DNA from: Deltaproteobacteria bacterium
Lineage (GTDB): Bacteria; Desulfobacterota; GWC2-55-46
Direction of reading: 5' to 3'
NCBI GenBank assembly: GCA_016212705.1
Contig: JACREU010000091.1
Coordinates: 217 to 64,216, forward strand
Length of the DNA stretch: 64,000 nucleotides
Below are positions 6,154-23,922 of this stretch, one piece after another (the first letter of the stretch is position 1; each line of letters opens with the position of its first letter). The translations under genes were made by a program, and so were the position numbers. A model generated the notes under the pieces. It worked only from the letters and a program-made list of their open reading frames with translations, was not told where the DNA came from and made no database searches.

Positions 6154-6157
6154 GTTT

Positions 6158-8526: not shown

Positions 8527-8532
8527 CGCGCC

Positions 8533-10281: not shown

Positions 10282-12008
10282 ACGGAAGGCTTAAACTCCT
10301 CCTTTTCGCGCTCGCCCTCGTAGCGGCCTCTTTTGCCGTTTACCACGCCACACTCTGGAACTCCTTCGTCTACGACGACGCGGAGCAGGTATTGAGGAAC
10401 CGCTGGATCACGGATTCGGGGTATTTAAAGGAGATATTCACCTCCCACACGTTCGGCTTCTCGGAATCCAGCTACCAGGCTATCTCCTACAGGCCTCTCT
10501 TCCTGGCCTTCTATATGGCCGAGTACGCCGTCTTCGGCCTTGAGCCGTGGGGGTGGCACCTTGTGAACATAATCCTCCACTCGGCAAACGCCGTAATCGC
10601 GTTCCTTCTCATAAGGCGGCTCATCGGAGCGGATGAGGAAGGGGCGTCCTTCGCCGCCTTTGCCGGAGCCCTCGTATTCACGGTCCTTCCGGCGGGGAGC
10701 GAGGTGGTCTCGTGGGTCGGGTGCGTCCCTGAGCTCTTATATACCTTTCTCTGTCTCGTTTCTTTTTATGTATACGCGGGGGCCGGCAAGGGGGTCGTAA
10801 GGGTCGTCGTTTCGGTTTTCTTTTATTTCATCGCGGCCTTCACGAAGGAGACCGCCATAATATTCCCGTTCTTTTTTTACGTGTATGATTCGCTCCGCGA
10901 GGGTTGGGTCCCTGGTCTCTCCCGCGTAAAAAGGTACGTCCCTTTTGCGGCGGCGGCAGTTGCCTACATCGGCATAAAATCCGCGCTACTCGGCCACATA
11001 GCCGCGCCCGTTCGGATACACACGGACCTTAAAGCGGCGGACTTCCTCGCAAGCGCCCCGTATCTTTTCGTTGAGTACCTGAGGGCGCTCGTATTCCCCG
11101 AGGGCGTCTACCCCCTTCAGCCCTTTGCGCCGATACCCTTCTTCGGCGCGGAGTTCATACTCTCGGCCCTGGGCATCGTTGCGCTCTCAGCCTTCTGTTT
11201 TTACTTTCGAAAGAGGTTCGGCAGGTTAACCCTCCTCGCCTTCGCGATATTAGTCGTGCCGCTTCTGCCGGCGCTCTACGCCCCGGCCATAAGCAGGACC
11301 CCTTTTGCCGAGAGATACCTGTATCTCCCGTCCGTCGGGTTAGCGCTCCTTATAGCCCTTGCCTTCCAAAGGGGCCTGCTCTATTCGGCTGTCTGGCGGA
11401 AAGCGCTTATTATCGCGCTCGCCGTCGTCTCGGCCTTTTACTCCGTCTGGTCGTACAAAAAGTCCCTCAACTGGAGGGATGACAGGGCCCTGTGGGAAGC
11501 ATCGCTCAAGGGGGGGCCGGGAAACCATCTCGCGCTGCATTCGCTGGGGTACATCGATTTCAAGGAGGGCAGGGACATTGAGGCGATAGAGAAGTTATCG
11601 CAGGCGCTTAAATACAACCTTGAGGGGATCCACCCTGACCCGACGATGGTCCTCCTTACGAGGAAGGTTCTCGCCAACGCGTACCAGAGGGGAGGCTTGA
11701 GTGACCGTGCGGTAATTGAGTACGAGGAGGTCTTAAGGTACGAGCCCGAGGACCCTGTCGCAGGCTTCAACCTTGGGACTATATACGAGGGGATGGGCCG
11801 CCCCGGCGACGCGATAGAACTCTATGAAAAGGCGCTTTACTTCGCGAAAAGGCCGGAGCTTCTGAGGGAGATTATCTTAAGGCTCGGAGAAGGTTATGCA
11901 AGGACCGGGCGCGCAACTGAGGCGCGTGCCTTATATGAGAGGGGCGCGGAGGCGTTCCCCGGAGACCCCGAGTTCCGGCAAAGGGCCCGCGCCCTCCCCG
12001 CGCGTTAG
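10278..12008 (+). CDS. GT-C type membrane glycosyltransferase (PMT_2/TMTC-like) with C-terminal TPR repeats, paralogue 4
   Basis: LWNSFVYDDAEQV, YRPLFLA, WGWHLVNI and AFTKETA motifs. TPR-like C-terminus. 4-nt overlap with paralogue 3. Confidence 0.7.
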   Translation: MNGRLKLLLFALALVAASFAVYHATLWNSFVYDDAEQVLRNRWITDSGYLKEIFTSHTFGFSESSYQAISYRPLFLAFYMAEYAVFGLEPWGWHLVNIILHSANAVIAFLLIRRLIGADEEGASFAAFAGALVFTVLPAGSEVVSWVGCVPELLYTFLCLVSFYVYAGAGKGVVRVVVSVFFYFIAAFTKETAIIFPFFFYVYDSLREGWVPGLSRVKRYVPFAAAAVAYIGIKSALLGHIAAPVRIHTDLKAADFLASAPYLFVEYLRALVFPEGVYPLQPFAPIPFFGAEFILSALGIVALSAFCFYFRKRFGRLTLLAFAILVVPLLPALYAPAISRTPFAERYLYLPSVGLALLIALAFQRGLLYSAVWRKALIIALAVVSAFYSVWSYKKSLNWRDDRALWEASLKGGPGNHLALHSLGYIDFKEGRDIEAIEKLSQALKYNLEGIHPDPTMVLLTRKVLANAYQRGGLSDRAVIEYEEVLRYEPEDPVAGFNLGTIYEGMGRPGDAIELYEKALYFAKRPELLREIILRLGEGYARTGRATEARALYERGAEAFPGDPEFRQRARALPAR

Positions 12009-12132
12009 TGGATAAACCGCTTTCTTGTTGTAATCCGCCATATTATGATATAATCAGCGTGCCGGGACTGGGTTGGGGGCGCGAGGCTCAAAGGCGCTGA
12101 ATTGTGAAAAAACACGTCGAGGGAATATCTTC

Positions 12133-12954
12133 ATGGCTTCTGAAAGAACAGACTCTAATCCGATGAGCTCAACCCGCGAAAAGCTGGCCCACATGTTCTC
12201 CAAGGTCATGGCAGGGACGGTCACGAGGGAAGAGGGGACGATGCTCCTCAACCACCTCGTAAAGGAGGACCATGCAGGTACGGTAAAGGAGCTCGCCTAT
12301 CTTATCGACTACCCGCCCCCTGGCGTTTTCCCCAAGACCATACTCCACACCATAGCGCTTTCGAGGAACAAGGCCTTCTACAACATAATGGTAGGGAGCC
12401 TCGAGCACAAGAACGAGGAGGTCTCGATACTCGCGGCCCAGGAGCTCGCCAGGCTCAAGACCTCGGACGCGAAGGTCGTGCTCGTCGAACACCTGAACAG
12501 CGAGGTATACCACGTAAGAAAGGCTTCAGCGATAGCGCTCGTAGATGGGTTGACCGACGGGATTGATATCGTCAGAAGACACCTCATGGACCAGGCAGAG
12601 CCTTTTTACAGATCCACTTCCGCGCTGGCGCTCCTTACAGGCGGCAGGAAGGGTATGGAGGCGCTCCTCGCCATTCTCAATTCCGGCGAGCCGGGCCCCG
12701 TGTCCACGGCCGCTGAGGCGGTAATGGGGGCGTCTTCCAGGCTTGACGCGGGAGACATACCAAAGGTCTTCGAGGCGTTGATGCTCGCCGGCGACAGGAA
12801 GGACTCAAGGACGATTATAGAGCTTCTGAAGGTGGCGACGGCGCTCGGAGGCAGGGCGAGGGGGTTCGATGGCTATGTGCAGGCCTTCATCGACTACCCG
12901 TTCGACGCGGTGAGGAACGAAGCCGTGGACGCGCTCCGTGTGATCAGGGCTTGA
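12133..12954 (+). CDS. HEAT/PBS-lyase-like repeat protein
   Basis: Repeated approx. 30-aa helical units (SILAAQELARLK..., VRKASAIALVD..., VRNEAVDALRV). Start chosen at the ATG at 12133 rather than the 12073 extension. Confidence 0.5.
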   Translation: MASERTDSNPMSSTREKLAHMFSKVMAGTVTREEGTMLLNHLVKEDHAGTVKELAYLIDYPPPGVFPKTILHTIALSRNKAFYNIMVGSLEHKNEEVSILAAQELARLKTSDAKVVLVEHLNSEVYHVRKASAIALVDGLTDGIDIVRRHLMDQAEPFYRSTSALALLTGGRKGMEALLAILNSGEPGPVSTAAEAVMGASSRLDAGDIPKVFEALMLAGDRKDSRTIIELLKVATALGGRARGFDGYVQAFIDYPFDAVRNEAVDALRVIRA

Positions 12955-13765
12955 ACCTTGTCCGCCTCAGGCCTTCAGCGGCCTCGAAGAGGAGCGGGTC
13001 CAGCCCCTGCGCGGTTTCGTATTCTTCTGCGGCGCGTATATGCTCGCCCGACATTTCAAACGCCTTCCCGAGCCCGTTATGGGCCTCGGCGGAGCCGGGG
13101 GCAAGCTCGACGGCACGGGAAAGGTTCTCGATGGCTGAGGCCGGGTCTTTCTTGATGATGAACGCCTCCCCGATCAGCCTGTGGGCGTCCGCGTAATCCG
13201 GCCTGTACCTTAACGCCGTTCTGTATTCCCCGATCGCCTCATCCAGCAAGCCCGTATCCCTGTAAAGATACCCCAGGTTAATGAGCGTCTTCACGTGAGA
13301 GGGTTTTATGCCGAGGGCCGTCCTGTATTCCTTAAGCGCCTCCGGGAACCTGCCCTTCGTGTAATAGGCGTATCCGAGGTTGTTGCGGGCCTCGACTATG
13401 TCGGGTTTGAGCGCAAGGGCGATCTCGTACTTTTCAATGGCTTCGTCTATCCTTCCCCATGTGTGGAATATCGCCCCGATGTTGAAGTACGCCTTCCCGT
13501 AATACGGGTATATCCCGATGGCCAGCAAGTTTTCCTCGAGCGCGCGGTCGAGGTCGCCGTTTCCGGCAAGCACCGTAGCGTAGTTGTAATGCGGGCGGGC
13601 CTTTGACGGGGATTTGCCGACGACGTCCGCCCAGAGCGTCTCCGGGCTCTTCCAGACCGAATTCCTGTTGAACGATATGAAGGCGAGCGCGATGATGGCC
13701 GCCGCAAGCGCGAGCGATGGGAGGGGGGACTGGTCGGTCCGGGCTGTTGGGCCGTTTACGCTCAT
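12944..13765 (-). CDS. membrane-anchored TPR repeat protein
   Basis: N-terminal TM segment (LALAAAIIALAFISF) followed by about 6 TPR units (YYGKAYFNIGAIF..., ARNNLGYAYY...). Its start overlaps the stop of the upstream OMP gene (TAATG). Confidence 0.7.
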   Translation of the reverse strand: MSVNGPTARTDQSPLPSLALAAAIIALAFISFNRNSVWKSPETLWADVVGKSPSKARPHYNYATVLAGNGDLDRALEENLLAIGIYPYYGKAYFNIGAIFHTWGRIDEAIEKYEIALALKPDIVEARNNLGYAYYTKGRFPEALKEYRTALGIKPSHVKTLINLGYLYRDTGLLDEAIGEYRTALRYRPDYADAHRLIGEAFIIKKDPASAIENLSRAVELAPGSAEAHNGLGKAFEMSGEHIRAAEEYETAQGLDPLLFEAAEGLRRTRFKP

Positions 13766-15774
13766 TACCAGACCCTCACGAAGACCCTTGTGGCCCTGAA
13801 TAGCAGCGAGGCCTCCTTCGTCTCGGTATTGCTCTCGACCGTGTACGTGTTCTTCTGTTCGAGACCGAGGAACCAGGCCCTCAGGGGATAGGTGAGGGAG
13901 TTGGTGAACGAAGTAGTGTCCTTGTCCGACTCAGAGCTCAGCTTCTGTGTGACCGAGAAGGTCGCCTGCCAGTTTAGGTTGTTGTAGAACTTCCTCGTGT
14001 ACTGGGTGAGGAACTGCAGGTCCCTTATAGTGTCGGAGCCGCCCTCAAATTCGGTGTCCATCAGCGTGTAGTAGAGCGAGAGGCTCAGCGACCCCTTGAA
14101 AAGGGGCCTGTTGTGCCCGACGGAGGCCCCGACGGAGTCGTTCTGTCCCGACCCGCTAACCCCGCTGAATGTGCTCGATCGTTCAGCGTAGCCCATGAGG
14201 TTGAAGTTCTTGAAGTAGGCGGAAGTGGCGTCGAGCCTGTACGTCTCGCTCTTGCTCCCGGTTATATCGATATAGGACTCGGTTACGGATTTGTTGAATG
14301 AGGCGTTAATGAGGACGTACTGTTTCCAGAGCTTGTTGAAGGCGTTGGCGTTGTAGTTACTTGAATGGGAGAATATGTCCTGGCCGGCGAGCGTGTAGGT
14401 GTCGGCGCGCGAGAAGCCTGCGCCGAAGCCGACGTACTTGTTTACGTCTATGTTGCCGAGCGACGCGTTGAAGCTGTGCTCGAGGCCCTGCCCGGTGCTG
14501 AAGCCCTCGGCCTTGTCCTCTATGTAGCCAAGCCCCCAGCCTGCCCCCAGCACGGCCCAGGAAAGCGCCTTCGAGTAGCTCAGCCTGGAGGTCGCCCTGA
14601 GCGTTGTCCTGTCGCCGGTCGTTGCGGACGTATCCGAGGCCGTGTCGGTCGTCGTTGTGTCAGTGGTGGTGTCGGTCGTGTCCGTCGTGTCCGTGGTTGA
14701 GGCGGCCGAGGTGTTGGCGTTTGTCTTGTAATCGGAATACGACACCGATTCCGAGGCCATGAGGTTATCCGTGAGCCTGAGGTTTACGCCGCCGCCCACG
14801 CCGAATGACTCGGTTTCGGAATCCGAGGTCGAAGAGTCGCTCTTTACGGTGCCGAGGCTGACGGAGAGGCTCGCGTCCGCCCTCTTCGATATCTTGTAGC
14901 CCATGTCGCCGGAGTAGGTGGTCCCTATCTGCTCGTCGCCGTCGGTTGAGTTCCTGTAGTAGGAGTACCTGTGGTCCTGCTTGAAGTCCTCGCTCGGCTT
15001 GGAGTTGAGGAGGAGGCTTAAGCCTTCGAGGCTCGTATTGGCGTCCGAGTCGGTCTCGGTAGAGGCGGAACGGCTGAGCGTGGCGCCCGCGTATATCTGG
15101 GTGCTCTTGGATATCTTTGTGAGGTTGTTGGCGTTAAAGGTGGCGGTCGACGATTCCGTGCCGTCGGTCGAGCCGCTCGTCGAGTACTGCATCGTCGCAT
15201 CGTTCACCGTCGGGCCGATGTCCTTCTTCAATATGACCTTGTAGTTGCCGGTCTCCGTATCGAGGCCTTCCGACTCCGAGAGCGTCCTCTCGGCGTAGAG
15301 AGAGGTCTGAGGCAGGGTCCGGAGTTTCAAAAACCAGTTGAGGCCGTAGGTAGTCTTTATCGTTTCCGCAGTGCTCGACTCGTCCACGGTCCTCTGTCCG
15401 TATAGGGAGAGAGGTATGGCGGATTTCGGGAGCGCCGTCGTGCGGAAGTAATAGCCGGTAGAGCGAGTCGTGACGTCGCTGGCATCCGACGAATAGTCGC
15501 TGTTCGTGAAGGACACCCCGGCGTCGTAGATTAAGAGCCTCCTCGACAGGAAGTTGCCCTTCAAGTCCAGTGTGTATGTCTGCTGGAAGCGGGCCGATTC
15601 CGACCCTATTCCGTTCTGCTCGGCCGCGGACTCCTCGAACTCGAACAAGACCTGTCCAACGAGGGACTTGTAGATGTACGGGTCCTCCTCGACCGCGTAG
15701 CCTCTTTGAGGCGCAAAGAGGAGAGCGGCGACGGCGGCTGTTGCGGCAACGAGCGCCAGTTTGTTGCGGAGCAT
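13765..15774 (-). CDS. large outer-membrane beta-barrel protein (putative)
   Basis: Sec signal (AAVAALLFAPQRGYA). Alternating-hydrophobic, Ser/Thr/Tyr/Gly-rich strands throughout. C-terminal ...VFVRVW aromatic end typical of OMPs. Internal Thr/Asp low-complexity loop. Confidence 0.6.
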   Translation of the reverse strand: MLRNKLALVAATAAVAALLFAPQRGYAVEEDPYIYKSLVGQVLFEFEESAAEQNGIGSESARFQQTYTLDLKGNFLSRRLLIYDAGVSFTNSDYSSDASDVTTRSTGYYFRTTALPKSAIPLSLYGQRTVDESSTAETIKTTYGLNWFLKLRTLPQTSLYAERTLSESEGLDTETGNYKVILKKDIGPTVNDATMQYSTSGSTDGTESSTATFNANNLTKISKSTQIYAGATLSRSASTETDSDANTSLEGLSLLLNSKPSEDFKQDHRYSYYRNSTDGDEQIGTTYSGDMGYKISKRADASLSVSLGTVKSDSSTSDSETESFGVGGGVNLRLTDNLMASESVSYSDYKTNANTSAASTTDTTDTTDTTTDTTTTDTASDTSATTGDRTTLRATSRLSYSKALSWAVLGAGWGLGYIEDKAEGFSTGQGLEHSFNASLGNIDVNKYVGFGAGFSRADTYTLAGQDIFSHSSNYNANAFNKLWKQYVLINASFNKSVTESYIDITGSKSETYRLDATSAYFKNFNLMGYAERSSTFSGVSGSGQNDSVGASVGHNRPLFKGSLSLSLYYTLMDTEFEGGSDTIRDLQFLTQYTRKFYNNLNWQATFSVTQKLSSESDKDTTSFTNSLTYPLRAWFLGLEQKNTYTVESNTETKEASLLFRATRVFVRVW
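14612..14712 (-). repeat. Thr/Asp-rich low-complexity tract (TTDTTDTTDTTTDTTTTDTASDTSATTGD) encoded by degenerate ACN-GAC trinucleotide repeats
   Basis: Visible in the DNA as gtcggtcgtgtccgtcgtgtccgtggt-type repeats inside the OMP gene. Confidence 0.7.
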
Positions 15775-15969
15775 GGAACGGTCCTTTCCCGGCCCGACGC
15801 TTTGTTTTATTCCGGTGTCGACTTAAGGCAAAAACGGCTGTTCCGCGGAGGCCCCGCTTAAGTGTGGGGCCTGCGCGGCGTGTCTTTTTGACCAAGGGCT
15901 TCACAGGGCCCGGAGGACGCGGTGGGCCCTGCGGCTCTCAGACGCGCCTTCAGGCGGCCTTGATGAGAT

Positions 15970-16761
15970 TTACCAGGCGCACCTGAACCCCACGTCGTCG
16001 TAACGTCTTTCGGGGGGCGCGGCGTTCCTGAAAGGCGCCCTGACGTAGACCTGGAGCGAGTAGTGGCCCATGCCGCCCCATCCGCCGCCGCGGACCACCT
16101 TGAGCTTCTCCCCGTAATCAGGGTCCTTGAACTCGTTATTCGGGTACGGTTTGTACCAGTCCGACGTCCACTCCTGCGCGTTGCCGGACATGTCATAGGC
16201 GCCGTAGGGGCCGACCCCGTCCTTGAGCGTGCCTACCGGGAGGGTGCCGCCGTACTCGCCTATGGTGTTGACCTTCTTTATGTCGAAGTCGTTGCCCCAG
16301 GGGAAAATCCTCCCGTCCGCGCCTCTGGCGGCCTTCTCCCACTCCGCTTCCGACGGTAGCCTCCGCCCCTTCCACTTGCAGTACTCATCGGCGTCCGCCC
16401 ATGTCACGAATACCACGGGATGGTCGGAGAGGTTCGCCGGATACGACCCCGCGGACCACTGCGGCGGAGCGGTCCGCCTGGTGGCGTCTACGAACTCCTT
16501 GTACTGTCTGTTCGTCACCTCGGTCCTGTCGATATGGAACGTATCGAGTTTTATCTTCCTCTCGGGCCTCTCGTTCGCGTACCAGGGGCGCCTGTCGCCG
16601 TACTGCATGGCCTTGGCCTCCCTGTCCACCTCGTTACTGCCGATCGTGAACTCGCCCCCCGGGACCTTCACCATGTCCTCGGGCGCTGATTGGCACCCAA
16701 CGAGGGCGAGAGAGAGTGACGTAAGGATCAAATAACCGGCATTCTTTACGGAGCGCATCAA
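15970..16761 (-). CDS. FGE-sulfatase (SUMF1/EgtB/PvdO-like) domain lipoprotein
   Basis: Lipobox LALVGCQ. Motifs RLPSEAEWEKAARG, WTSDWYKPYP, VRGGGW and GFRCAW. Lacks the Cx4C active-site pair of true FGEs. Confidence 0.75.
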   Translation of the reverse strand: MMRSVKNAGYLILTSLSLALVGCQSAPEDMVKVPGGEFTIGSNEVDREAKAMQYGDRRPWYANERPERKIKLDTFHIDRTEVTNRQYKEFVDATRRTAPPQWSAGSYPANLSDHPVVFVTWADADEYCKWKGRRLPSEAEWEKAARGADGRIFPWGNDFDIKKVNTIGEYGGTLPVGTLKDGVGPYGAYDMSGNAQEWTSDWYKPYPNNEFKDPDYGEKLKVVRGGGWGGMGHYSLQVYVRAPFRNAAPPERRYDDVGFRCAW

Positions 16762-16848
16762 AAACCTCCCTGTGTTTAAAGGCCTACCCCGCGGGGGCCG
16801 GCCCGAAATGTGAAGTATTAACCGCCGTTAGCGGCTTTTTCAAGCCTT

Positions 16849-18417
16849 TCAGTCCAGGACGATCTCCCGGTCCGACGTCGCAATAACGCTGAAGCGGAAC
16901 CGCTCCCTGGTCTTGAAGTCCTGGAAATCCACAGGGTTGAAGTCGTCCGTAAAAAGCGTCTCTCCAAGGGGAAGCTCTATTTTCCTTGAAAGGAGCGCCC
17001 TTACGTCCTCCTCGAACGCTGGATGAACCCTGGCTTCGTAGGAGTCATTTATCGGCCGCTCGACGAGGGTCGCCGCGAATATCATGTTCACTACCCTTGG
17101 GGCGGGGGCGGAATACTCAACCGACGTGTAGACGTCGATACGGGGGAAGACCTCCTTCAAGGTCCGCAGGAGCGACGAGGGGGCCGCGAGGTCCTCCGGC
17201 ATATTCGACCCGACGAAGTTTATTATAAGGACCCCGTCTACTGCGAGCCTTTTTCTGACGAGCTTGAACGCCTCCAGGCTTATGAGGTGGCTCGGTGGCG
17301 TATCCCCTGAGAACGCGTCGAGGACTATTATGTCGTAAGGCTCCGTTGACGCGTTGAGGAAGTACCGGCCGTCCTCGATGAACGTCGGGTGGAGCGACTT
17401 GTCATAGGCGAAGTACCTGGCCGCCGTCAGAACGACCGAGGGGTTTATCTCCACTACGTCGGTCTTTATGCCGTAGAGCTTATGCAGCCTGTTCGGTACG
17501 ATGCCGCTCCCGAGCCCTATGACAAGGGCGCGCTTTGCCGAAGGGTTGTAAGCGCGCGAGAGCTTCTCGATGTAGTACGTGTACTTGGAGACCGAAAGCC
17601 CGGTCCTCAAGTCGACGGCGCCCTGTATCATGTTCTCAAGAAGGAACTCGCGGACCAATTGGTCTCCGTAGGTGTAATCGACGACCTTTATCTGCCCGTA
17701 GGCGCTGTCCTCGTTTACGACGAGAGCGGCCTTTGTGCCGTCGGGCCTGACGACGGACGGGAGGTCCTTCGGGAAAAGAAGGAGGACTAACGGCACCGCG
17801 ACGACCGCCAGGGCGTAGGCCTTTCTCCTGAACAGGAGCCAGTAGAGCGCCCCGATCAGGATGAGGGACGCCGACGAGAGGTAGATTATGTTATTGACGC
17901 CGATATTCGGTATGAGGATAAAGCCGGTGGATACGGTGCCGACGAAGCTCCCGGCGGTCGATACCGCGTAGAGCCAGCCGACGGTCCTCCCGATCCCGTC
18001 CCTCCCGTCGCCCATGTAGAGCTTGACGGTGTACGGCGCGACCATGCCGAGTAAAAATAGCGGCGGGCCGAAGAGGACGGTCGAGCTTACGAGCGACCCG
18101 GCGCGCAGGCCCAGGGACAGGGAGAGACCTATGACAGTCCCCTTTATGACCGGGACCGCGAGAAGGGAGAGCCCGGCGAGGAAAATGACCGTAAAGAGCG
18201 CGCCGTGGCTCCCGTATCGGTCCGCGAGCCTGCCGCCCAGCCAGTAGCCTAACGCGAGCGATACGAGCGTTACGGTTATGAGCGAGGTCCAGACGAAGAG
18301 GCTCACGCCGAAAGGCGGTCCGATGACCCTTGAGCCGATGAGCTCGACGACCATTACTATCGAGCCGCACGCGAAGGCGGTGAAGACGAGGTATTTGTTC
18401 GAGCCTTCCCCTTTCAT
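16849..18417 (-). CDS. fused polytopic membrane domain / spermidine-synthase-like (SpeE-like) protein
   Basis: About 7 N-terminal TM segments. C-terminal SAM-MTase/aminopropyltransferase-like motifs: ALVIGLGSGIV and DIIVLDAFSGD. Confidence 0.65.
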   Translation of the reverse strand: MKGEGSNKYLVFTAFACGSIVMVVELIGSRVIGPPFGVSLFVWTSLITVTLVSLALGYWLGGRLADRYGSHGALFTVIFLAGLSLLAVPVIKGTVIGLSLSLGLRAGSLVSSTVLFGPPLFLLGMVAPYTVKLYMGDGRDGIGRTVGWLYAVSTAGSFVGTVSTGFILIPNIGVNNIIYLSSASLILIGALYWLLFRRKAYALAVVAVPLVLLLFPKDLPSVVRPDGTKAALVVNEDSAYGQIKVVDYTYGDQLVREFLLENMIQGAVDLRTGLSVSKYTYYIEKLSRAYNPSAKRALVIGLGSGIVPNRLHKLYGIKTDVVEINPSVVLTAARYFAYDKSLHPTFIEDGRYFLNASTEPYDIIVLDAFSGDTPPSHLISLEAFKLVRKRLAVDGVLIINFVGSNMPEDLAAPSSLLRTLKEVFPRIDVYTSVEYSAPAPRVVNMIFAATLVERPINDSYEARVHPAFEEDVRALLSRKIELPLGETLFTDDFNPVDFQDFKTRERFRFSVIATSDREIVLD

Positions 18418-18432
18418 CTCATCGCGGGCCTT

Positions 18433-19425
18433 TTATTTTTTGTCATTCGCGCACCGGAACCCGAAGTTGTTGTTCTTCGTGGTCGGGTGGAAGAATATCC
18501 TGTTGTAGTTCGGGGAGCTTATCCCGCACTTGTACGTGGTGCAGTCGTACCAGGAGCCGCCCTTCAACACCTTGTACTTTTCCCCGTAGTTCTCGTCGGG
18601 GTGGGTGTTCCCGGGGTAGGGTTTGAACCAGCTGTCCGTCCACTCGAATGCGTTGCCGGCCATGTCGTAGAGGCCGTAAGGGCTCTTGCCGCTCTCGAAG
18701 GACCCGATCGGTAGCGTGTCCTCGTGCCCGTACTGCGGCGTGTTACCCTTTTCCTTGGCGAACTTGTCGCCCCAGGGGAATGTCCTCTTGTCAACGCCTC
18801 TGGCGGCCTTTTCCCATTCCTCCTCGGAGGGAAGGCGCTTGCCCTCCCATCTGCAGAAGTTGTCCGCGTCCTTCCATGTCACATATACGACAGGGTGGTC
18901 CTTCTTGCCCTCCGGAATATTCCCGTCCTTCCAGTGGTCCGGGGCAGGGTAGCCTGCGGCGTCGACGAAGGCCTTATAGCGCGCATTTGTTACCTCGTAT
19001 CTGTCGATGTAGAAGGCCCCGACCATCCTTGAATGCTCCGGCTGGCTCTTGGGCCACCATTCATTCGACCCCATGGTGAACTCCCCGGCAGGGATGAGCA
19101 CCATCCCCTTTGGGGCGGCCCCCTTTACCGCGCCCTTGCCGGAAGCAACGGCAAGGGTCTCGGCGTACCTGTCTATTTCATTCCGCTCCGAGGGGTCCCT
19201 GAACCTCCCGTTTATCTCCACATAGTTGTCGCTTAAGCCCGGGCCGTGGCACTCCGCGCAGGTCTCGTCCCTGGTGTAGTCCGTCGAGTACCGCCTGTCC
19301 GGCGTGTGGCAGTCCATGCACTTGGGCTCGCCTGTGGCCGGGTCGTAGTCGCTCGCCGCGCCGTAAGCGGACGTTGCGAGCGCGCAGAGGGAGACGGCAA
19401 CGGCTGATAAGAGTAGTCTTTTCAT
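18433..19425 (-). CDS. diheme c-type cytochrome fused to an FGE-sulfatase domain
   Basis: Signal peptide. Two CxxCH motifs (CMDCH, CAECH) in the N-terminal 60 aa. FGE-domain motifs follow: RLPSEEEWEKAARG, WTDSWFKPYP, LKGGSW, then C-TTYK-C (Cx4C) and GFRCAN. Confidence 0.75.
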   Translation of the reverse strand: MKRLLLSAVAVSLCALATSAYGAASDYDPATGEPKCMDCHTPDRRYSTDYTRDETCAECHGPGLSDNYVEINGRFRDPSERNEIDRYAETLAVASGKGAVKGAAPKGMVLIPAGEFTMGSNEWWPKSQPEHSRMVGAFYIDRYEVTNARYKAFVDAAGYPAPDHWKDGNIPEGKKDHPVVYVTWKDADNFCRWEGKRLPSEEEWEKAARGVDKRTFPWGDKFAKEKGNTPQYGHEDTLPIGSFESGKSPYGLYDMAGNAFEWTDSWFKPYPGNTHPDENYGEKYKVLKGGSWYDCTTYKCGISSPNYNRIFFHPTTKNNNFGFRCANDKK

Positions 19426-19453
19426 TTTTAGCCAGTTTTTTTTGTTTGCGGCC

Positions 19454-19903
19454 TTATTTCGGGGCGGCCTTGCCCTCGCGTTCGAGCTGTCTTATGAACG
19501 CGAGCACGTCCCATCTCTCTTTTTCGGACAATATCTCCTGCCACCTCGGCATGGACATCGACTCTCCGCCGACCTCTTTGTGTATCCCCTCTGTTATGGA
19601 TTTAAAGAGCTCGGCGTCGGTCTTCGACATCCTCTTCGCGTCGTTTACGAAATCAGCCGGGTGAGGTGAGAGGGCTATGCCCACTGGCCCGTCGCCCATG
19701 CCCTTTTGCCCGTGGCAGAAGTGGCAGTACCTGAAGTATATATCCCTGCCCGCCGTTGCTTCGCCGGCTCCTGCCTGCATGGCCTGAGCCGCGGCCGGCG
19801 GCTTTTCAGGCTGAGGGGGGCTCTTTTTCTCGCCGGTGCATCCGGATACGGAAAGAAGCGCCGCAAGGGAGGCGGCTATGGTTATCGCGAGCGGCTTCTG
19901 CAT
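19454..19903 (-). CDS. monoheme class I c-type cytochrome lipoprotein
   Basis: Lipobox LSVSGC. Single CHFCH motif with a distal Met candidate (SMSMP). 149 aa. Confidence 0.75.
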   Translation of the reverse strand: MQKPLAITIAASLAALLSVSGCTGEKKSPPQPEKPPAAAQAMQAGAGEATAGRDIYFRYCHFCHGQKGMGDGPVGIALSPHPADFVNDAKRMSKTDAELFKSITEGIHKEVGGESMSMPRWQEILSEKERWDVLAFIRQLEREGKAAPK

Positions 19904-19954
19904 AAATGGGATATCCTTGTCTTCACATGCCGATACTGCCGGCCCGACACTCAG

Positions 19955-20950
19955 TCATTTAAGGGGTGTTACGAACTCGACCTTGGAGGAATCGCGCAGG
20001 CTTTTGAGCCATCCGCTCCAGAGCCTCTTGTACTCCTTGGCTTCGAGCTCCTTTTCGAGTTTTTCCTTGTTGAGCTCCTCGAACTTCTTCTGCACCGCAG
20101 GCTTGCTTCCCTCGAGCCTTATGACATGGTAGCCGTAAATTGACATGACCGGTCCGCCGACCTCGCCGGCCTTGAGCTTCGAGGCGGCGTCGTCTATCTC
20201 AGGTATTAGCTCGCCCTTGTGCGACCAGCCCATGTCGCCGCCATTTTTAGCGAACGGGTCCTCGGAGTTCTTCTCGGCGAGCTTGGCGAAGTCCTCGCCC
20301 GCCTTCGCCTTCTCCGCTAAATCCTTCGCCTTCTTGAGCGACTCGTTCCAGACCTTCTGGCCGCCTGAAGGGTCTGCCTTGACGAGTATGGACCTTAAGT
20401 GTATCTGCTCGGGCTCCTTGAACTTCGGGAGGTTCTTCTGATAGTAGTCCTTCATGAAGGCCTCGTCGACGGTCTTTTCCGAGAGCTTCTTTGTTTCCTC
20501 AGTTTTTTTCTTGGCGAGCCTCTCAACGACCATGTCCCTCTTGAAGTCCTCCTTCAAGTCGGCGAGCGTAATCCCGCTCCTCTTCAAGACCTTCTCAATG
20601 GTCTCGCCCTTCGGGAGCTTCTTCTTGAGTTCCTTGACCCTCGCGTCTATTTCCTTAGGGTCTACGTCGTCCTGTTTCGTTTCAACTGCGGCCTTGTACA
20701 TGAGCTCGTTGTTTATGAGCTTATCGAGCGCCTGCCTCTGTATCTCCCTCATCCGTTCGTCGGAGACCGACTGGTGATATGTCATGAGAGGGAGGAGGTT
20801 GCTTGTGGCGGTATCCAGGGTCTCCCTCGTTATGACCTTTCCGTTCACCTTTACTATCACGTCCGCCGGCGAAGTGGCCGCGAACGACGCCGGGGCGAGG
20901 AGCGCGACAAAGACGGCTGTGGCGAGGAGCCTTTTTGAAAAGCTTGACAT
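19955..20950 (-). CDS. parvulin-type peptidyl-prolyl cis-trans isomerase (SurA/PrsA-like chaperone)
   Basis: Signal peptide. SurA-like N-terminal region. Parvulin motifs: HLRSILV...GGDMGW...GYHVIRLEG. Confidence 0.7.
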   Translation of the reverse strand: MSSFSKRLLATAVFVALLAPASFAATSPADVIVKVNGKVITRETLDTATSNLLPLMTYHQSVSDERMREIQRQALDKLINNELMYKAAVETKQDDVDPKEIDARVKELKKKLPKGETIEKVLKRSGITLADLKEDFKRDMVVERLAKKKTEETKKLSEKTVDEAFMKDYYQKNLPKFKEPEQIHLRSILVKADPSGGQKVWNESLKKAKDLAEKAKAGEDFAKLAEKNSEDPFAKNGGDMGWSHKGELIPEIDDAASKLKAGEVGGPVMSIYGYHVIRLEGSKPAVQKKFEELNKEKLEKELEAKEYKRLWSGWLKSLRDSSKVEFVTPLK

Positions 20951-21336
20951 GTATGGACCTCCGGGGGTTAGTGATTGGCTATTATAATATAACGGAAATA
21001 AATAATAAATCTAAAATCTTATCCTGGCGGGCGAATAAACCGGCCCAGTGCCACATTCTATATTTTCAGTTTAAAATGACGGTTATGCGATTATTAAAAA
21101 ATTTTAACCTTCCGGGCAAGAAAACATTGACAAGACCATAAGAGAAAACAAAAAGGGGGAGACGCGGGCCGTTCGCGCCTGTTTCCGCGCGTTTTGTCGC
21201 CCCTGTCCGAATATGGAGGAGTATACATCAGGGTATGCTGTGTCGAGGTGATGATTCGCGAGGTATCCCCCCCCCCCTGGGTGGCGCCGTGGGCTTATGC
21301 AGGCACATCATCATAAGGGAGTGGCGCCGGATGGAG

Positions 21337-21373
21337 GCAAAAAAAAAGAAGGGCCGGTTTCCCGGCCCTTCTT
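21337..21373 (-). terminator. Rho-independent terminator of the tetraheme cytochrome gene
   Basis: 12-bp GC-rich stem AAGAAGGGCCGG/CCGGCCCTTCTT with a 4-nt loop. It is followed on the minus strand by a T9 run, about 30 nt after the stop codon. Confidence 0.85.
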
Positions 21374-21404
21374 TGCACCTTGCAGTCTCGCGACCGCAGA
21401 GTGA

Positions 21405-22295
21405 TTACTTCTGGTGGCAGGTTCTGCAGAGACCAGAACCGGTGTTGCCGCCGACCCTTCTAAGGAACAGGCCGTTGGACTCAGCTTCCTGGTCCGCGGT
21501 CACGTTCGAGTAGGTGGAGTCGATTTCCTGCCAAGACTTGTTGTTGAAGTGCGGATCGTGGCAGCTGGAGCACTCAACCTTGGAGGACCTGAGGAGGTCG
21601 GCGATCGTCGCCGAGTTGGAGACGAAGCCCTTTACCGCCCAGAGGTTCTTGGTGAGGTTGCCGTTGTCGTAGGTCGCGGCAGAGGTGTTGAGCTCAGAGG
21701 TAAGGTCGATACCGCTGATGGTTACGTTGGTGGCCCTCAGACCAGCGGCCGTCCCGGCGGCATAGGTCACGGAAACCGGGTGGTCGTTGGAGAGGTTAAG
21801 GCCGATGTTCAACCTGCTGGAGGTCATGAAGTCGGAGACGACTGACCCGAAGTCATAGAAGGTGTAGCCACGGTCCGAACCGCCGTTGACGACGCCGGAC
21901 TTACCAGGGGCGTTGACAATGTTGTCGAAGGTGGTTACGCCGTCATGGCATGAAAGACAGGCAAGCGAAGTCGAGCCGATGTCGGTGTTGAGGATCGAGG
22001 TACCCGCGATCGTCGAGCCATAGGCCGTGAAGGATGTCGGAGCGGAGGTGCCCCTGTTCCACATCGGCTTAAGGTTGTTGGCGGTGTTGGTGTGGTGAGG
22101 CGTGTGACAGAATACGCAGACTTCGGTCGTGCCCTGGGCGCCGATGTGCATCGAGAAGCCGCCGAGGTTGTGCCTGGAAGACGCGATGCCTGACGCGGCG
22201 TCGCCGTTGGCGTAGGTGTCAACTGCTGAAGCTGTACCGGCGGTGATGAAACCGATTGAGGCGACCGCTACTGCGATTGCGAGAAACCTTTTCAT
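21405..22295 (-). CDS. secreted tetraheme c-type cytochrome (doubled-CXXCH family)
   Basis: Sec signal (TASA/VD). Four CxxCH motifs: CVFCHTPHH, CLSCH, CSSCHDPH, CRTCH. SRHNL precedes heme 1 as in paired-CXXCH proteins. Gly/Ser/Thr/Asn-rich. Good RBS (AAAGGAG). Confidence 0.85.
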   Translation of the reverse strand: MKRFLAIAVAVASIGFITAGTASAVDTYANGDAASGIASSRHNLGGFSMHIGAQGTTEVCVFCHTPHHTNTANNLKPMWNRGTSAPTSFTAYGSTIAGTSILNTDIGSTSLACLSCHDGVTTFDNIVNAPGKSGVVNGGSDRGYTFYDFGSVVSDFMTSSRLNIGLNLSNDHPVSVTYAAGTAAGLRATNVTISGIDLTSELNTSAATYDNGNLTKNLWAVKGFVSNSATIADLLRSSKVECSSCHDPHFNNKSWQEIDSTYSNVTADQEAESNGLFLRRVGGNTGSGLCRTCHQK

Positions 22296-22371
22296 ATGAG
22301 ACTCCTTTCAATCTTTAAAGTTGTTTTTTTAGATACCTTGTTTCGTTTCGTCTCTGGCATTTTTTTTGGGT

Positions 22372-22422
22372 AAAAAAAATGCCTTCAGTTACCACCACCA
22401 GTCATCGGTAGTACCAAGGCAT
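22372..22422 (-). terminator. leader (attenuator-type) terminator inside the 5' UTR of the tetraheme cytochrome gene
   Basis: RNA AUGCCUU-GG-UACUACC ... GGUGGUA-ACUG-AAGGCAU forms two 7-bp helices, directly followed by U8. It lies about 75 nt upstream of the start codon. Confidence 0.45.
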
Positions 22423-22485
22423 CCATCGCCTGGAGGTCTGTCAGGGCCCGCCGTGAACCTTGTCAGCCTTCATTAAGTTACCACC

Positions 22486-22513
22486 ATTATACTCTTAAGT
22501 TAAAAACTGTCAA
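22486..22513 (-). promoter_or_regulatory. consensus sigma70 promoter of the tetraheme cytochrome gene
   Basis: Minus strand reads TTGACA-N16-TATAAT (plus strand tgtcaa at 22508-22513, attata at 22486-22491). This implies a leader of about 185 nt. Confidence 0.7.
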
Positions 22514-22713: not shown

Positions 22714-22824
22714 TTGAAATCACCCCACCCGGCCTCCCATTGTAGAGGGGAGGCGATTTACTCCTGCGCGCAAGCGCGCAACAAGGCCTTCAATTAAAAG
22801 GCCTTGCTTTTTGAAGGGCGGTCC

Positions 22825-22860: not shown

Positions 22861-22881
22861 GGATAATGCCAGGTGAGCCGC

Positions 22882-23922
22882 TTACTTCTTAATAACAGGC
22901 ACGCTCGTCCTCACTTTTGCCTTGTCCCCGAGGTACTCGAACTTCTCGATCCGCCTGTTCCAGGAGTCTACTACATATATATAGTCGTCCTTATCGACCG
23001 TGAGGCCCGCGGGCAGTATCATCTGCCCCCTGTCGCTCCCGTAGGAGGCGAACGCGAGGAGTATCTGCCCCTCCTCGTTGAATATCTGGATATTATTGAA
23101 GGCCGCGTCCACGACGTATATATGCCCTTCGCTGTCGACCCCGATGCCCTTGGGTCTGGCGAACATCCCCGGGGCGTCCCCGAACTGGCCGAAGGCCCGT
23201 ATGAACTTGCCTTCGGTATCGAATATCTGGACCCTGCCGTTCATGGTGTCTACTACGTAGAGGTTGCCCTTTGTGTCAACGGCTATGTGGGACGGGAAGT
23301 TGAACTCGCCCTCCTCCTTGCCCCTCTTGCCGATAGTGCTTATGTGCTTCAATGTCTCGGTATCGAAGACCTTTATGTTATGCGTGTGCGTGTCCGCGAC
23401 GTATATCTTCTTGCGCTCGAAGTCGGAGGCGATCCCGCTCGGCTGCTTGAAGGGCTGGTCCGCGACGAGGTTGCCGACGACCTTGCCGGTCGGGTCGAGG
23501 ACCGTAACCGAGTCGGTCTGGGAGTCCGATACATATATCCTGCCGTTTACGTCCGTCGCAACGCCTATGGGCTTGTAAAAGAGCTTCGCGCCCATCGCCG
23601 CGAGGGACGTGCCGGTCATGTTTACGGTGTCGAATATAAAGACGTCGGCGCTCGAGGTGTCGGTTACATAAATCTTGCCCTTTATGTCGGTATGGACGCC
23701 CATGGGCTTTCTAAGGGAGCCGCCGCCCTCGCCGCCGAGGAGGATGTCCATAGCCGCCGAGCCCTTCTTGAAGTCGGCTCCGCCGCGAAAGTCCCGGATA
23801 TATTTTATCCGGGGCTCGTCCGGGGGCTCGGGCCACAAGAGGTCCGGGAGCGGCGGCGCGGCGCAACCGTATATCAGGATGGGAAGGGCGATTGTGACGA
23901 GAACCTTGAATATCTTCTTCAT
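22882..23922 (-). CDS. NHL-repeat six-bladed beta-propeller lipoprotein
   Basis: Lipobox LIYGCA. Six or seven repeats of the G.IYV.D type roughly every 45 aa (IYVTD, IYVSD, IYVAD, LYVVD, IYVVD x2). Confidence 0.8.
   Translation of the reverse strand: MKKIFKVLVTIALPILIYGCAAPPLPDLLWPEPPDEPRIKYIRDFRGGADFKKGSAAMDILLGGEGGGSLRKPMGVHTDIKGKIYVTDTSSADVFIFDTVNMTGTSLAAMGAKLFYKPIGVATDVNGRIYVSDSQTDSVTVLDPTGKVVGNLVADQPFKQPSGIASDFERKKIYVADTHTHNIKVFDTETLKHISTIGKRGKEEGEFNFPSHIAVDTKGNLYVVDTMNGRVQIFDTEGKFIRAFGQFGDAPGMFARPKGIGVDSEGHIYVVDAAFNNIQIFNEEGQILLAFASYGSDRGQMILPAGLTVDKDDYIYVVDSWNRRIEKFEYLGDKAKVRTSVPVIKK

What the first reader, a model, noticed from the sequence alone, without database searches (positions are those of the whole stretch)
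12944..20950. Seven-gene envelope operon: PPIase, cyt c, diheme-FGE, membrane SpeE-like, FGE lipoprotein, giant OM barrel, TPR protein
All seven genes are on the minus strand with short gaps (51, 28, 15, 87 and 195 bp, plus a 1-nt TAATG overlap), so they are plausibly co-transcribed. The combination is one I cannot assign to any described pathway. It has a periplasmic folding catalyst, a soluble monoheme electron carrier and two FGE/SUMF1-fold (copper-oxidase-type) proteins. It also has an inner-membrane protein with a cytoplasmic or periplasmic aminopropyl/methyl-transferase-like domain, a 669-aa outer-membrane barrel and a membrane-anchored TPR scaffold. The architecture spans inner membrane, periplasm and outer membrane. 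It looks like a redox-driven protein- or small-molecule-modification and export machine.
Basis: inference. Interest (0 to 1): 0.65.

Follow-up and report, generated by a model that had tools for sequence, protein, structure and literature searches.

The report
Accessory genes of a cytochrome-nanowire locus

Summary
All seven minus-strand ORFs, their gaps and their domain calls are correct. The gene order recurs in 16 species-level genomes of uncultured groundwater Thermodesulfobacteriota and in about 20 metagenome contigs.

The operon is not an orphan. A tetrahaem cytochrome gene (21405-22295) lies 454 bp upstream. It is homologous to the Geobacter OmcE nanowire subunit (PDB 7TFS, E=1.4e-15) and keeps eight invariant His. 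Upstream of that are an NHL beta-propeller lipoprotein, orthologous to the one next to Geobacter omcE, and a trihaem c7 lipoprotein. GT2 and TPR-membrane genes converge on the other side.

The seven genes most likely help fold, supply with electrons, export or anchor an OmcE-type filament:
- a SurA-like PPIase (prolyl isomerases are reported as nanowire factors for OmcS and OmcZ)
- a predicted 32-strand outer-membrane barrel
- an inner-membrane-anchored TPR protein
- a module of cyt c, dihaem-FGE and a Cys-less FGE lipoprotein

The FGE module also occurs away from OmcE, in places as a cyt c::FGE fusion, so it looks like a self-contained redox enzyme of unknown substrate. The SpeE-like gene is absent from about half the loci.

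Verdict: a new variant of a known kind, of moderate interest.

The parts
19955..20950 (-). SurA-like periplasmic chaperone/PPIase (SurA_N domain plus one parvulin domain, Sec signal peptide). First gene of the seven-gene unit.
   Evidence: Pfam Rotamase 75 bits and SurA_N_3 45 bits. Signal peptide ...ASFA/ATS. Always linked to cyt c-FGE-FGE in loci with >=60% dihaem-FGE identity, except L055/L058.
19454..19903 (-). Monohaem class-I cytochrome c lipoprotein
   Evidence: Cytochrome_CBB3/Cytochrom_C. One CXXCH and lipobox SVSGC. Fused to the second FGE domain in L064-L068.
18433..19425 (-). Dihaem cytochrome c fused to an FGE/SUMF1-fold domain that keeps a C-x4-C pair (C295, C300)
   Evidence: FGE-sulfatase 200 bits. 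CXXCH at residues 36 and 56. Both haem motifs and GGSWYDC-x4-C are kept in every full-length orthologue examined. Human FGE is the best PDB sequence match, E=3e-32.
16849..18417 (-). Seven-TM membrane protein with a C-terminal spermidine-synthase/methyltransferase-like domain. An optional component.
   Evidence: NF037959, 241 bits. Nearest PDB sequences are spermidine synthases and the METTL13 C-domain, E about 1e-7. Seven hydrophobic peaks in 10 orthologues, with the positive-inside rule placing the domain in the periplasm. Absent from L003, L014, L015, L017, L018, L019, L023, L024, L027, L035 and L037-L055.
15970..16761 (-). FGE-fold lipoprotein without the catalytic Cys pair (conserved GGGWGGMGH instead)
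   Evidence: FGE-sulfatase 194 bits. Lipobox LVGC. No Cys pair in any orthologue.
13765..15774 (-). Outer-membrane beta-barrel of about 32 strands, the fastest-evolving gene of the locus
   Evidence: AF2 pLDDT 83.5, 32 strands. C-terminal FVRIW. PDB fold hits are only generic large barrels, best MtrB with TM 0.35. 249 cluster representatives at E<=1e-3 in an exhaustive HMMER search.
12944..13765 (-). TPR protein with one N-terminal TM anchor. Its start overlaps the barrel's stop (TAATG).
   Evidence: TPR families. TM segment 14-32. Overlap read. Follows the barrel wherever the contig extends past it.
21405..22295 (-). OmcE-family tetrahaem cytochrome, the likely filament subunit and client of the seven genes. 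Its own transcription unit.
   Evidence: PDB 7TFS E=1.4e-15 and 9YUQ E=1.9e-12. Four CXXCH plus four further invariant His across 43 family members, including Geobacter OmcE. 7TFS is the only significant fold match.
22296..22513 (-). Consensus sigma-70 promoter (22513-22486) and conserved structured leader of the OmcE-like gene
   Evidence: TTGACA-16-TATAAT, 12 of 12, in the window and in L003, L005, L006, L015 and L021. Two conserved hairpins, the second followed by U8.
21345..21374 (-). Strong intrinsic terminator that separates the OmcE-like gene from the seven-gene unit
   Evidence: 13-bp stem with 8 GC pairs and a T-run, 30 nt after the stop. Equivalent terminators in L005 and L021.
22882..23922 (-). 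NHL six-bladed beta-propeller lipoprotein
   Evidence: NHL 119 bits. 37% identity, E=4e-64, to the propeller next to Geobacter omcE. Lipobox IYGC.
24141..24773 (-). Trihaem c7-type cytochrome lipoprotein. First gene of the locus on this strand.
   Evidence: Cytochrome_C7. TIGR04257 nanowire_3heme, 65.6 bits against a cut-off of 40. Three CXXCH and a lipobox.
4249..12954 (+). Convergent operon of four polytopic proteins with C-terminal TPR repeats, a GT2 glycosyltransferase and a HEAT-repeat protein. Presumed glycosylation/assembly genes.
   Evidence: Conserved next to the cluster in the loci. Matches the GT/TPR genes reported after Geobacter omcE clusters.

Best explanation
The seven genes are the accessory operon of an OmcE-type extracellular cytochrome (nanowire) locus in an uncultured groundwater Thermodesulfobacteriota bacterium.

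Shown:
- The locus order is c7 trihaem lipoprotein, NHL propeller, OmcE-like tetrahaem subunit, then the seven genes. A GT2/TPR-membrane/HEAT operon converges on the far side.
- The subunit gene has its own consensus promoter, a conserved leader, and terminators on both sides.
- The whole arrangement is conserved across many genomes.

Inferred:
- The Sec-exported, haem-loaded and mostly coil subunit is held and proline-isomerised by the SurA-like PPIase.
- It is polymerised at, or threaded through, the 32-strand outer-membrane barrel.
- The inner-membrane-anchored TPR protein and the NHL propeller act as scaffolds.
- The lipoprotein cytochromes (c7 and monohaem c) bring electrons to the base of the filament.

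The cyt c, dihaem-FGE and Cys-less FGE trio is a self-contained periplasmic redox enzyme. It resembles a catalytic SUMF1-like subunit paired with a SUMF2-like non-catalytic paralogue, each served by a c-type cytochrome. This lineage has recruited it to the locus. Its substrate is unknown. My guess is an oxidative modification of the filament, its glycan, or an envelope component. The SpeE-like membrane protein is an optional extra.
For: - OmcE homology of the adjacent gene.
- The NHL propeller is orthologous to the one next to Geobacter omcE, whose locus also has a large barrel with no Pfam match directly after omcE, followed by glycosyltransferases.
- Conserved synteny in 16 genome loci and in the >=60%-identity metagenome loci, including three different rearrangements that keep PPIase-cyt c-FGE-FGE together near OmcE, NHL and c7.
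- Barrel model and beta-signal.
- All products carry a signal peptide, lipobox or TM segment.
- Prolyl isomerases are reported as folding factors for OmcS (OscH) and as required for OmcZ nanowire expression.
- Promoter and terminator architecture.
- A conserved TATATTATAAT element sits before the PPIase gene in the window, L027 and L028.
- The FGE module is autonomous: a cyt c::FGE fusion and occurrences without OmcE.
Against: - No experiment or transcript data.
- Filament formation by this OmcE homologue is untested. It is 64 residues longer than Geobacter OmcE and its AF2 model is poor (pLDDT 58).
- The barrel shows no detectable sequence homology to the Geobacter omcE-cluster barrel.
- Two loci keep the seven-gene unit but lack an intact OmcE gene at that position. 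L028 has none. L027 has only a C-terminal remnant.
- The FGE pair also occurs in unrelated contexts, so its link to the filament may be indirect.
- No cluster protein has a free Cys or a CxPxR motif for classical FGE chemistry.
- OscH and OscE-G sequences could not be obtained for comparison.
Confidence: 0.6

Rival explanations
1. The seven genes are an independent envelope redox-modification/export system. They only neighbour the OmcE-like gene, and their client is some other protein, lipid or glycan.
For: The unit has its own promoter-like region and is separated from the OmcE-like gene by a strong terminator. L028 and L027 keep the unit without an intact OmcE gene. The FGE pair occurs in many contexts without OmcE.
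Against: In at least 16 distinct loci the unit lies beside OmcE-family genes. NHL and c7 genes are there even where OmcE is missing. Rearranged versions still keep the module next to OmcE, NHL and c7 (L040-L054, L055). OmcE paralogues are numerous elsewhere in these genomes, so action in trans is possible.
Confidence: 0.2
2. The barrel, the periplasmic cytochromes and the OmcE-like protein form a porin-cytochrome conduit of the Mtr/Pcc type. It carries electrons across the outer membrane without secreting a filament.
For: The best PDB fold hit of the barrel is MtrB, 6R2Q_B. Three periplasmic c-type cytochromes are encoded in the locus.
Against: TM-score is only 0.35, with 32 rather than 26 strands. 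There is no deca- or octahaem periplasmic partner to fill a barrel. The extracellular partner is homologous to a protein whose solved structures are filaments.
Confidence: 0.1
3. The FGE-fold proteins are structural, like the PorK/GldK lipoprotein ring of type IX secretion. Together with the PPIase, giant barrel and TPR protein they form a T9SS-like secretion apparatus.
For: Both FGE proteins match PorK/GldK (TIGR03525 E=2.6e-31 and 2.3e-24; PDB 9MZU E about 1e-14 to 1e-15). One is a lipoprotein lacking the catalytic Cys pair. From my own recollection, not checked here, the T9SS translocon SprA is a giant barrel purified with a PPIase.
Against: Scores are far below the GldK cut-off (109 and 86 bits against 350), and lower than the scores against catalytic FGEs. 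Covalent haem domains and an invariant C-x4-C point to redox chemistry. No PorL, PorM or PorN-like genes are present. The barrel does not match SprA among the top fold hits.
Confidence: 0.05
4. The FGE proteins mature sulfatases by converting Cys to formylglycine. The rest of the operon is unrelated envelope housekeeping.
For: High-scoring FGE-sulfatase domains, with a Cys pair in one of them. A sulfatase-family gene lies 12 kb away at 33250-34947.
Against: No C/SxPxR motif in any cluster protein. The sulfatase-family protein has WTLPA at the nucleophile position and is not syntenic in L006. The loci examined for the FGE pair show no sulfatases.
Confidence: 0.03

Closest known systems
Geobacter/Desulfuromonadia omcE nanowire gene cluster (OmcE = GSU0618; PDB 7TFS, 9YUQ)
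   Same: OmcE-family tetrahaem subunit with the same eight His. Orthologous NHL beta-propeller lipoprotein immediately upstream. Periplasmic c-type cytochromes upstream. A large outer-membrane barrel with no Pfam match downstream. GT2/TPR glycosylation-type genes alongside.
   Different: Five genes (PPIase, cyt c, dihaem-FGE, SpeE-like, FGE lipoprotein) sit between subunit and barrel, and a TPR gene follows the barrel. There is one propeller rather than two. A trihaem c7 lipoprotein replaces the two larger multihaem cytochromes. The barrel is not detectably homologous. The subunit is 296 aa against 232 aa.
osc (omcS-companion) cluster of G. sulfurreducens (Shen et al. 2025, Cell Chem Biol 32:239; known here only through citing papers)
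   Same: A nanowire subunit gene accompanied by a folding factor (OscH), channel-like secretion proteins (OscE, F, G) and a morphology factor (OscD), as reported in PMC13194489. The abstract as I remember it calls OscH a prolyl isomerase and OscD beta-propeller-like. Here too there is a PPIase, a putative channel and a beta-propeller.
   Different: The subunit here is OmcE-like (4 haems), not OmcS-like (6 haems). No FGE or SpeE-like components are mentioned for osc in the texts I could read. Sequence homology to the Osc proteins could not be tested.
omcZ-ozpA-prolyl isomerase operon
   Same: A dedicated prolyl isomerase encoded with a nanowire cytochrome and needed for its expression (bioRxiv 10.64898/2026.07.18.739370).
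   Different: There is no OzpA-like protease here, and the cytochrome family is different.
SUMF1/SUMF2 (FGE and its non-catalytic paralogue pFGE)
   Same: A pair of FGE-fold paralogues, one with the two catalytic Cys and one without. Both match PDB FGE and SUMF2.
   Different: These are periplasmic. One is fused to a dihaem cytochrome c and the other is partnered with, or elsewhere fused to, a monohaem cytochrome c. No sulfatase substrate is present.
PorK/GldK lipoprotein of the type IX secretion system
   Same: An FGE-fold lipoprotein without the catalytic Cys pair, encoded with outer-membrane machinery.
   Different: Scores are well below the family cut-off. Haem partners are present. No other T9SS genes are present.

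Membership tests
OmcE-type cytochrome nanowire locus | OmcE-family tetrahaem subunit (4 CXXCH plus 4 distal His) encoded in the locus | tested here: met
   7TFS E=1.4e-15 and 9YUQ E=1.9e-12. Eight invariant His in a 43-sequence alignment that includes Geobacter OmcE. 7TFS is the only fold hit.
OmcE-type cytochrome nanowire locus | Beta-propeller lipoprotein(s) adjacent to the subunit gene | tested here: met
   The NHL lipoprotein at 22882-23922 is 37% identical (E=4e-64) to the Geobacter neighbour of omcE. Only one copy is present, whereas two are described for Desulfuromonadia.
OmcE-type cytochrome nanowire locus | Large outer-membrane beta-barrel encoded after the subunit | tested here: inconclusive
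   A 32-strand barrel is present. There is no significant homology to the Geobacter 752-aa protein by hhalign or by a 123-sequence HMM. Only weak collinear BLAST matches appear at the termini.
OmcE-type cytochrome nanowire locus | Two multihaem cytochromes upstream | tested here: not met
   Only one trihaem c7 lipoprotein lies upstream. The other cytochromes of the locus are monohaem and dihaem.
OmcE-type cytochrome nanowire locus | The subunit polymerises into an extracellular filament | not testable with these tools
   Needs cryo-EM, or AF3 modelling with haems.
osc (omcS-companion) cluster | OmcS-like hexahaem subunit | tested here: not met
   The neighbouring cytochrome has four CXXCH and matches OmcE, not OmcS.
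osc (omcS-companion) cluster | Homologues of OscH (PPIase), OscE/F/G (channel) and OscD (propeller) | not tested
   A PPIase, a barrel and a propeller are present as functional analogues.
Formylglycine-generating enzyme (catalytic FGE/SUMF1) | FGE fold | tested here: met
   PF03781 at 200 and 194 bits.
Formylglycine-generating enzyme (catalytic FGE/SUMF1) | Two catalytic, copper-binding Cys in the C-terminal loop (C-x4-C after GGS) | tested here: met
   Dihaem-FGE: GGSWYDC-x4-C is kept in every full-length orthologue examined. No Cys equivalent to human C235 exists to explain the pair as a structural disulphide. The equivalence to C336/C341 is inferred from position and spacing. The first Cys of the motif was part of one search pattern used for the metagenome loci. 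Not met in the lipoprotein paralogue.
Formylglycine-generating enzyme (catalytic FGE/SUMF1) | Sulfatase substrate with a C/SxPxR motif | tested here: not met
   No motif in any cluster protein. The nearby sulfatase-family protein lacks it.
T9SS PorK/GldK | Score above the TIGR03525 cut-off, and presence of PorL/M/N partners | tested here: not met
   109 and 86 bits against a cut-off of 350. No such partners among the annotated neighbours.
Spermidine synthase (SpeE) | Equivalog-level match and the GGGDG motif | tested here: not met
   TIGR00417 at 40.5 bits against a cut-off of 249.55. The motif is GLGSG. The protein does meet the subfamily model NF037959, fused MFS/spermidine synthase (241 bits against 40).
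Porin-cytochrome conduit (MtrAB/Pcc) | A barrel of about 26 strands, similar to MtrB, plus a periplasmic deca- or octahaem insert | tested here: not met
   TM 0.35 to 6R2Q_B, and 32 strands. The largest periplasmic cytochrome has three haems.

The most novel reading that the evidence does not exclude
The cyt c, dihaem-FGE and Cys-less FGE trio may be a previously unrecognised class of periplasmic FGE-family oxidoreductase fed by c-type cytochromes. In this lineage it would carry out an unknown maturation step on an extracellular cytochrome filament or its glycan coat. The 32-strand barrel, SurA-like PPIase and TPR anchor would then be a dedicated outer-membrane assembly pore for OmcE-type nanowires, unrelated in sequence to the Geobacter one. 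The conserved terminator-containing leader upstream of the subunit gene would be a new riboswitch or attenuator that controls nanowire production.
Probability: 0.2. Interest if true: 0.8.

Novelty: new variant of a known kind. Interest (0 to 1): 0.55.

Why it matters
How cytochrome nanowires are folded, exported and anchored is still described as speculative (PMC12307469). This locus offers a second, sequence-unrelated candidate for the outer-membrane component of an OmcE-type system. It also carries a PPIase like those implicated for OmcS and OmcZ, which suggests that prolyl isomerisation is a general requirement.

It also exposes a widespread, uncharacterised protein family: a dihaem cytochrome c fused to an FGE domain with the catalytic Cys pair, always partnered with a Cys-less FGE. 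As far as I know, the physiological electron donor of aerobic FGEs has not been identified. A covalent cytochrome fusion points to a testable candidate. The extreme conservation of the subunit's promoter and leader gives a handle on how nanowire expression is regulated in uncultured groundwater bacteria.

Tried and rejected
- Sulfatase maturation. No C/SxPxR motif in any cluster protein. The only sulfatase-family gene in the window lacks the motif and is not syntenic.
- Homology of the barrel to the Geobacter omcE-cluster barrel. hhalign gave 1.65% probability. A 123-sequence HMM gave no hit at E<=10. BLAST showed only weak collinear terminal matches. Left as inconclusive.
- A specific structural relative for the barrel. 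Foldseek against the PDB gave only generic large barrels with TM <=0.38.
- AF2 of the OmcE-like protein. Poor model, pLDDT 58, used only as weak support through its single 7TFS hit.
- Rfam search of 11000-28000 for riboswitches. Nothing at E<=0.1 except two chance-level sRNA hits.
- The 195-nt gap before the barrel gene as a structured element or terminator. z = -1.65, not significant.
- ORF 24873-25937(-). A shadow of the real MinD/ParA-like gene on the plus strand.
- Reading Shen et al. 2025 and Wang et al. 2022. Not held. The Osc comparison therefore rests on citing papers.
- Pfam and NCBIfam on the membrane domains of the four TPR-membrane proteins and on the 906-aa protein. No hits.
- Literature searches linking OmcE or nanowires with FGE or spermidine synthase. 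Nothing relevant.
- Exact look-up of the SpeE-like protein in the contig index. Not on record.


Full report
**Observation.** The gaps are 51, 28, 15, 87 and 195 bp, and the TAATG stop/start overlap at 13765 was read directly.

Pfam and NCBIfam confirm each domain call:
- a SurA_N plus parvulin PPIase
- a monohaem class-I cytochrome c
- an FGE-sulfatase protein preceded by two CXXCH motifs
- a 'fused MFS/spermidine synthase' (NF037959, 241 bits)
- a second FGE-sulfatase protein
- a 669-aa protein with no family
- a TPR protein

Every product is exported or membrane-bound. The PPIase, the dihaem-FGE and the 669-aa protein have Sec signal peptides. The cyt c and the second FGE have lipoboxes. 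The TPR protein has one TM segment and the SpeE-like protein has seven.

AlphaFold2, run on 15 homologues, models the 669-aa protein as a signal peptide followed by 32 beta-strands (pLDDT 83.5). Its C-terminus, FVRIW, looks like a BAM beta-signal.

The next gene upstream on the same strand (21405-22295, 296 aa, four CXXCH) is homologous to the Geobacter sulfurreducens OmcE nanowire subunit (PDB 7TFS, E=1.4e-15). It also matches a second deposited multihaem cytochrome (9YUQ, E=1.9e-12), which I take to be the Desulfuromonas soudanensis OmcE filament, though the entry's organism was not checked.

I aligned 43 proteins spanning this clade and the Geobacter OmcE clade. The invariant residues include the four CXXCH motifs and exactly four further histidines: H42, H67, H172 and H249. 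That matches a bis-His tetrahaem. The AF2 model of this protein is poor (pLDDT 58). Even so, its only significant PDB fold match is 7TFS.

Two more genes lie upstream:
- An NHL beta-propeller lipoprotein (22882-23922) is 37% identical (E=4e-64) to the propeller encoded immediately before omcE in G. sulfurreducens.
- A trihaem lipoprotein (24141-24773) passes the NCBIfam 'nanowire_3heme' c7 domain model.

In Geobacter the order is two multihaem cytochromes, the NHL propeller, OmcE, a 752-aa protein with no Pfam match, and then glycosyltransferases. A 2025 preprint describes the minimal OmcE cluster as two multihaem cytochromes, two beta-propeller lipoproteins, OmcE and a large beta-barrel. It says this core is often followed by GT2/4/39, TPR and methyltransferase genes.

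The window has the same skeleton. A convergent operon of four TPR-membrane proteins, a GT2 and a HEAT protein lies at 4249-12954. The difference is that five extra genes sit between subunit and barrel, and a TPR gene follows the barrel.

**Synteny.** I probed one genome per GTDB species with the barrel alignment. This returned 16 loci, all from uncultured 'Deltaproteobacteria'/Thermodesulfobacteriota MAGs. The closest is GWB2_55_19, at 93%.

A tblastn map shows the order c7, NHL, OmcE (one or two copies), PPIase, cyt c, dihaem-FGE, [SpeE-like], FGE lipoprotein, barrel, TPR. The convergent HEAT/TPR-membrane/GT2 genes and a 906-aa protein follow. This order appears in every locus that is long enough.

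An independent probe, the dihaem-FGE alignment against JGI metagenomes, returned 80 loci:
- Loci with >=60% identity again carry the locus. Some are rearranged: the PPIase-cyt c-FGE-FGE block is convergent with c7, NHL and OmcE, or the barrel lies between OmcE and NHL copies.
- One locus (L028) has no OmcE gene at that position, and one (L027) has only a C-terminal remnant.

OmcE-family paralogues are also scattered elsewhere in these genomes.

The SpeE-like gene is absent from about half the loci. The barrel diverges fastest, at 25-40% identity where the FGE proteins remain 62-77% identical. That fits a surface-exposed protein.

**Transcription signals.** A perfect TTGACA-16-TATAAT promoter lies about 190 nt upstream of the OmcE-like start codon. 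It is conserved in five other loci whose proteins are only 44-71% identical.

Strong intrinsic terminators follow the NHL gene and the OmcE-like gene. The subunit is therefore an insulated, probably very highly expressed unit.

The seven genes start after that terminator. They are preceded by an AT-rich region with a TATATTATAAT element that recurs in L027 and L028, and by a GGAGG ribosome-binding site. No convincing terminator lies within the unit. Co-transcription of the seven genes is plausible, and the available signals do not contradict it. No transcript data were available.

**The FGE module.** The dihaem-FGE keeps both CXXCH motifs and a GGSWYDC-x4-C motif in every full-length orthologue examined. 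One caveat applies: GGSWYDC was one of the two search patterns used for the metagenome loci.

The position after GGS, the C-x4-C spacing and the distance to the C-terminal FGFRCA match the catalytic Cys pair of FGEs. No Cys equivalent to human C235 is present that could make the pair a structural disulphide (the equivalence is my inference).

The lipoprotein paralogue has no such cysteines and carries a conserved GGGWGGMGH instead. In a second set of metagenome loci (about 57% identity) the monohaem cytochrome c is fused to this second FGE domain, and no OmcE gene lies within 10 kb. In more distant loci (43-50% identity) a dihaem-FGE plus Cys-less FGE pair sits in unrelated neighbourhoods.

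The trio therefore behaves as an autonomous, cytochrome-wired enzyme, reminiscent of SUMF1 with its non-catalytic paralogue SUMF2. It does not look like a structural PorK-like ring.

Classical substrates are absent:
- No cluster protein has a C/SxPxR motif.
- Every Cys in the secreted cluster proteins is accounted for by haem attachment, a lipobox or the signal peptide, or lies in the FGE proteins themselves.
- The one sulfatase-family gene in the window lacks the motif and is not syntenic.

**SpeE-like protein.** It is closest to spermidine synthases and to the METTL13 C-domain, which as I recall is a protein N-terminal methyltransferase (E about 1e-7). Its motif is GLGSG rather than GGGDG. 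Seven hydrophobic segments recur in ten orthologues, and the positive-inside rule puts the catalytic domain in the periplasm. This is a crude prediction. Because the gene is dispensable in half the lineages, I treat it as an optional accessory.

**Mechanism.** The synteny, the homologies and the localisation signals are shown. The rest is inferred.

The PPIase probably chaperones the coil-rich, haem-loaded subunit. Citing papers report OscH as the OmcS folding factor, and a prolyl isomerase as required for OmcZ nanowire expression. The 32-strand barrel probably serves as the outer-membrane exit or anchor. The TPR protein and the NHL propeller probably act as scaffolds. The lipoprotein cytochromes probably deliver electrons. 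The FGE pair probably performs an oxidative step of unknown substrate.

I put 0.9 on membership of an OmcE-type locus and about 0.55 on the biogenesis role, giving 0.6 overall.

**Rivals.**
- An independent system that merely neighbours OmcE: 0.2.
- A porin-cytochrome conduit: 0.1. MtrB is the top fold hit, but at TM 0.35.
- A T9SS-like structural apparatus: 0.05.
- Sulfatase maturation: 0.03.

**Comparison and novelty.** The system works like the Geobacter omcE and osc clusters. Membership of the OmcE-type locus is met for the subunit and the propeller. It is inconclusive for the barrel, which shows no detectable homology. It is not met for the two upstream multihaem cytochromes.

Full-text searches found no paper that links OmcE or nanowires with FGE-family or spermidine-synthase-like proteins. 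The key osc paper could not be read.

I rate this a new variant of a known kind, with interest 0.55. The locus as a whole is explained by a known system. The cytochrome-fused FGE pair, the unrelated giant barrel and the conserved leader RNA are concrete leads that I could not find described in the searchable literature.

Noticed in passing
window 22296-22513 (minus strand); also L003, L005, L006, L015, L021: The 5' leader of the OmcE-like gene is conserved at nucleotide level (67% mean identity), while the proteins are 44-71% identical. It has a perfect sigma-70 consensus promoter, a hairpin with compensatory changes, and a long hairpin followed directly by U8 and then an A-run/TGCC that could form an alternative pairing. 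This looks like a transcription attenuator or riboswitch. No Rfam family matched at E<=0.1.
   Followed up: partly
L064-L068 (e.g. L066:10941-12197): In these marine/sediment metagenome loci the monohaem cytochrome c and the Cys-less FGE are fused into one 418-aa protein that follows the dihaem-FGE. No OmcE gene lies nearby. The neighbours are NnrS, a radical SAM protein, an M14 peptidase and an L,D-transpeptidase.
   Followed up: partly
window 24903-26844 (plus strand): Divergent from the locus are a MinD/ParA-like ATPase with a C-terminal RomY_Nterm domain and a PilZ-domain protein. The pair is conserved at this position in L003, L005, L006 and others. It may be a c-di-GMP/polarity regulator of the system. 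The minus-strand ORF 24873-25937 is only its shadow.
   Followed up: partly
window 1341-4061 (minus strand): A 906-aa protein with no Pfam, NCBIfam or PDB match, no signal peptide and no TM segment. It is conserved (48-64% identity) at the far end of the TPR/GT2 operon in most loci.
   Followed up: partly
window 13765-15774, residues 355-385 of the barrel: A Thr/Asp-rich low-complexity loop (TTDTTDTTDTTTDTTTTDTASDTSATT) is present only in the closest relatives. It may be an extracellular loop that is glycosylated or binds metal.
   Followed up: partly
L027:7236-8291 and L028:8071-8438: Two metagenome loci keep c7, NHL and the seven-gene unit but have lost the OmcE-like gene at this position. 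L027 retains a 56-residue C-terminal remnant plus the terminator. The subunit gene therefore behaves as a gain/loss cassette, unless this is an assembly collapse among paralogues.
   Followed up: partly
window 33250-34947 (plus strand): A lipoprotein of the sulfatase/alkaline-phosphatase superfamily lies in a low-GC stretch (0.506). It lacks the C/SxPxR motif and is absent from the syntenic region of L006, so it is probably a local insertion unrelated to the FGE genes.
   Followed up: yes
window 4249-12008 (plus strand): Four paralogous proteins of about 540-630 aa, each with a large N-terminal membrane domain that matches no Pfam family and C-terminal TPR repeats, interleaved with a GT2. In L001 one orthologue has a weak PMT_2 (GT39-like) hit, which suggests protein O-glycosylation enzymes.
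   Followed up: partly
one search hit list (P0016-P0135): The OmcE-like family is large (2030 clusters at E<=1e-3). Several paralogues per MAG sit on different contigs, many of them outside this locus type (e.g. L007).
   Followed up: no
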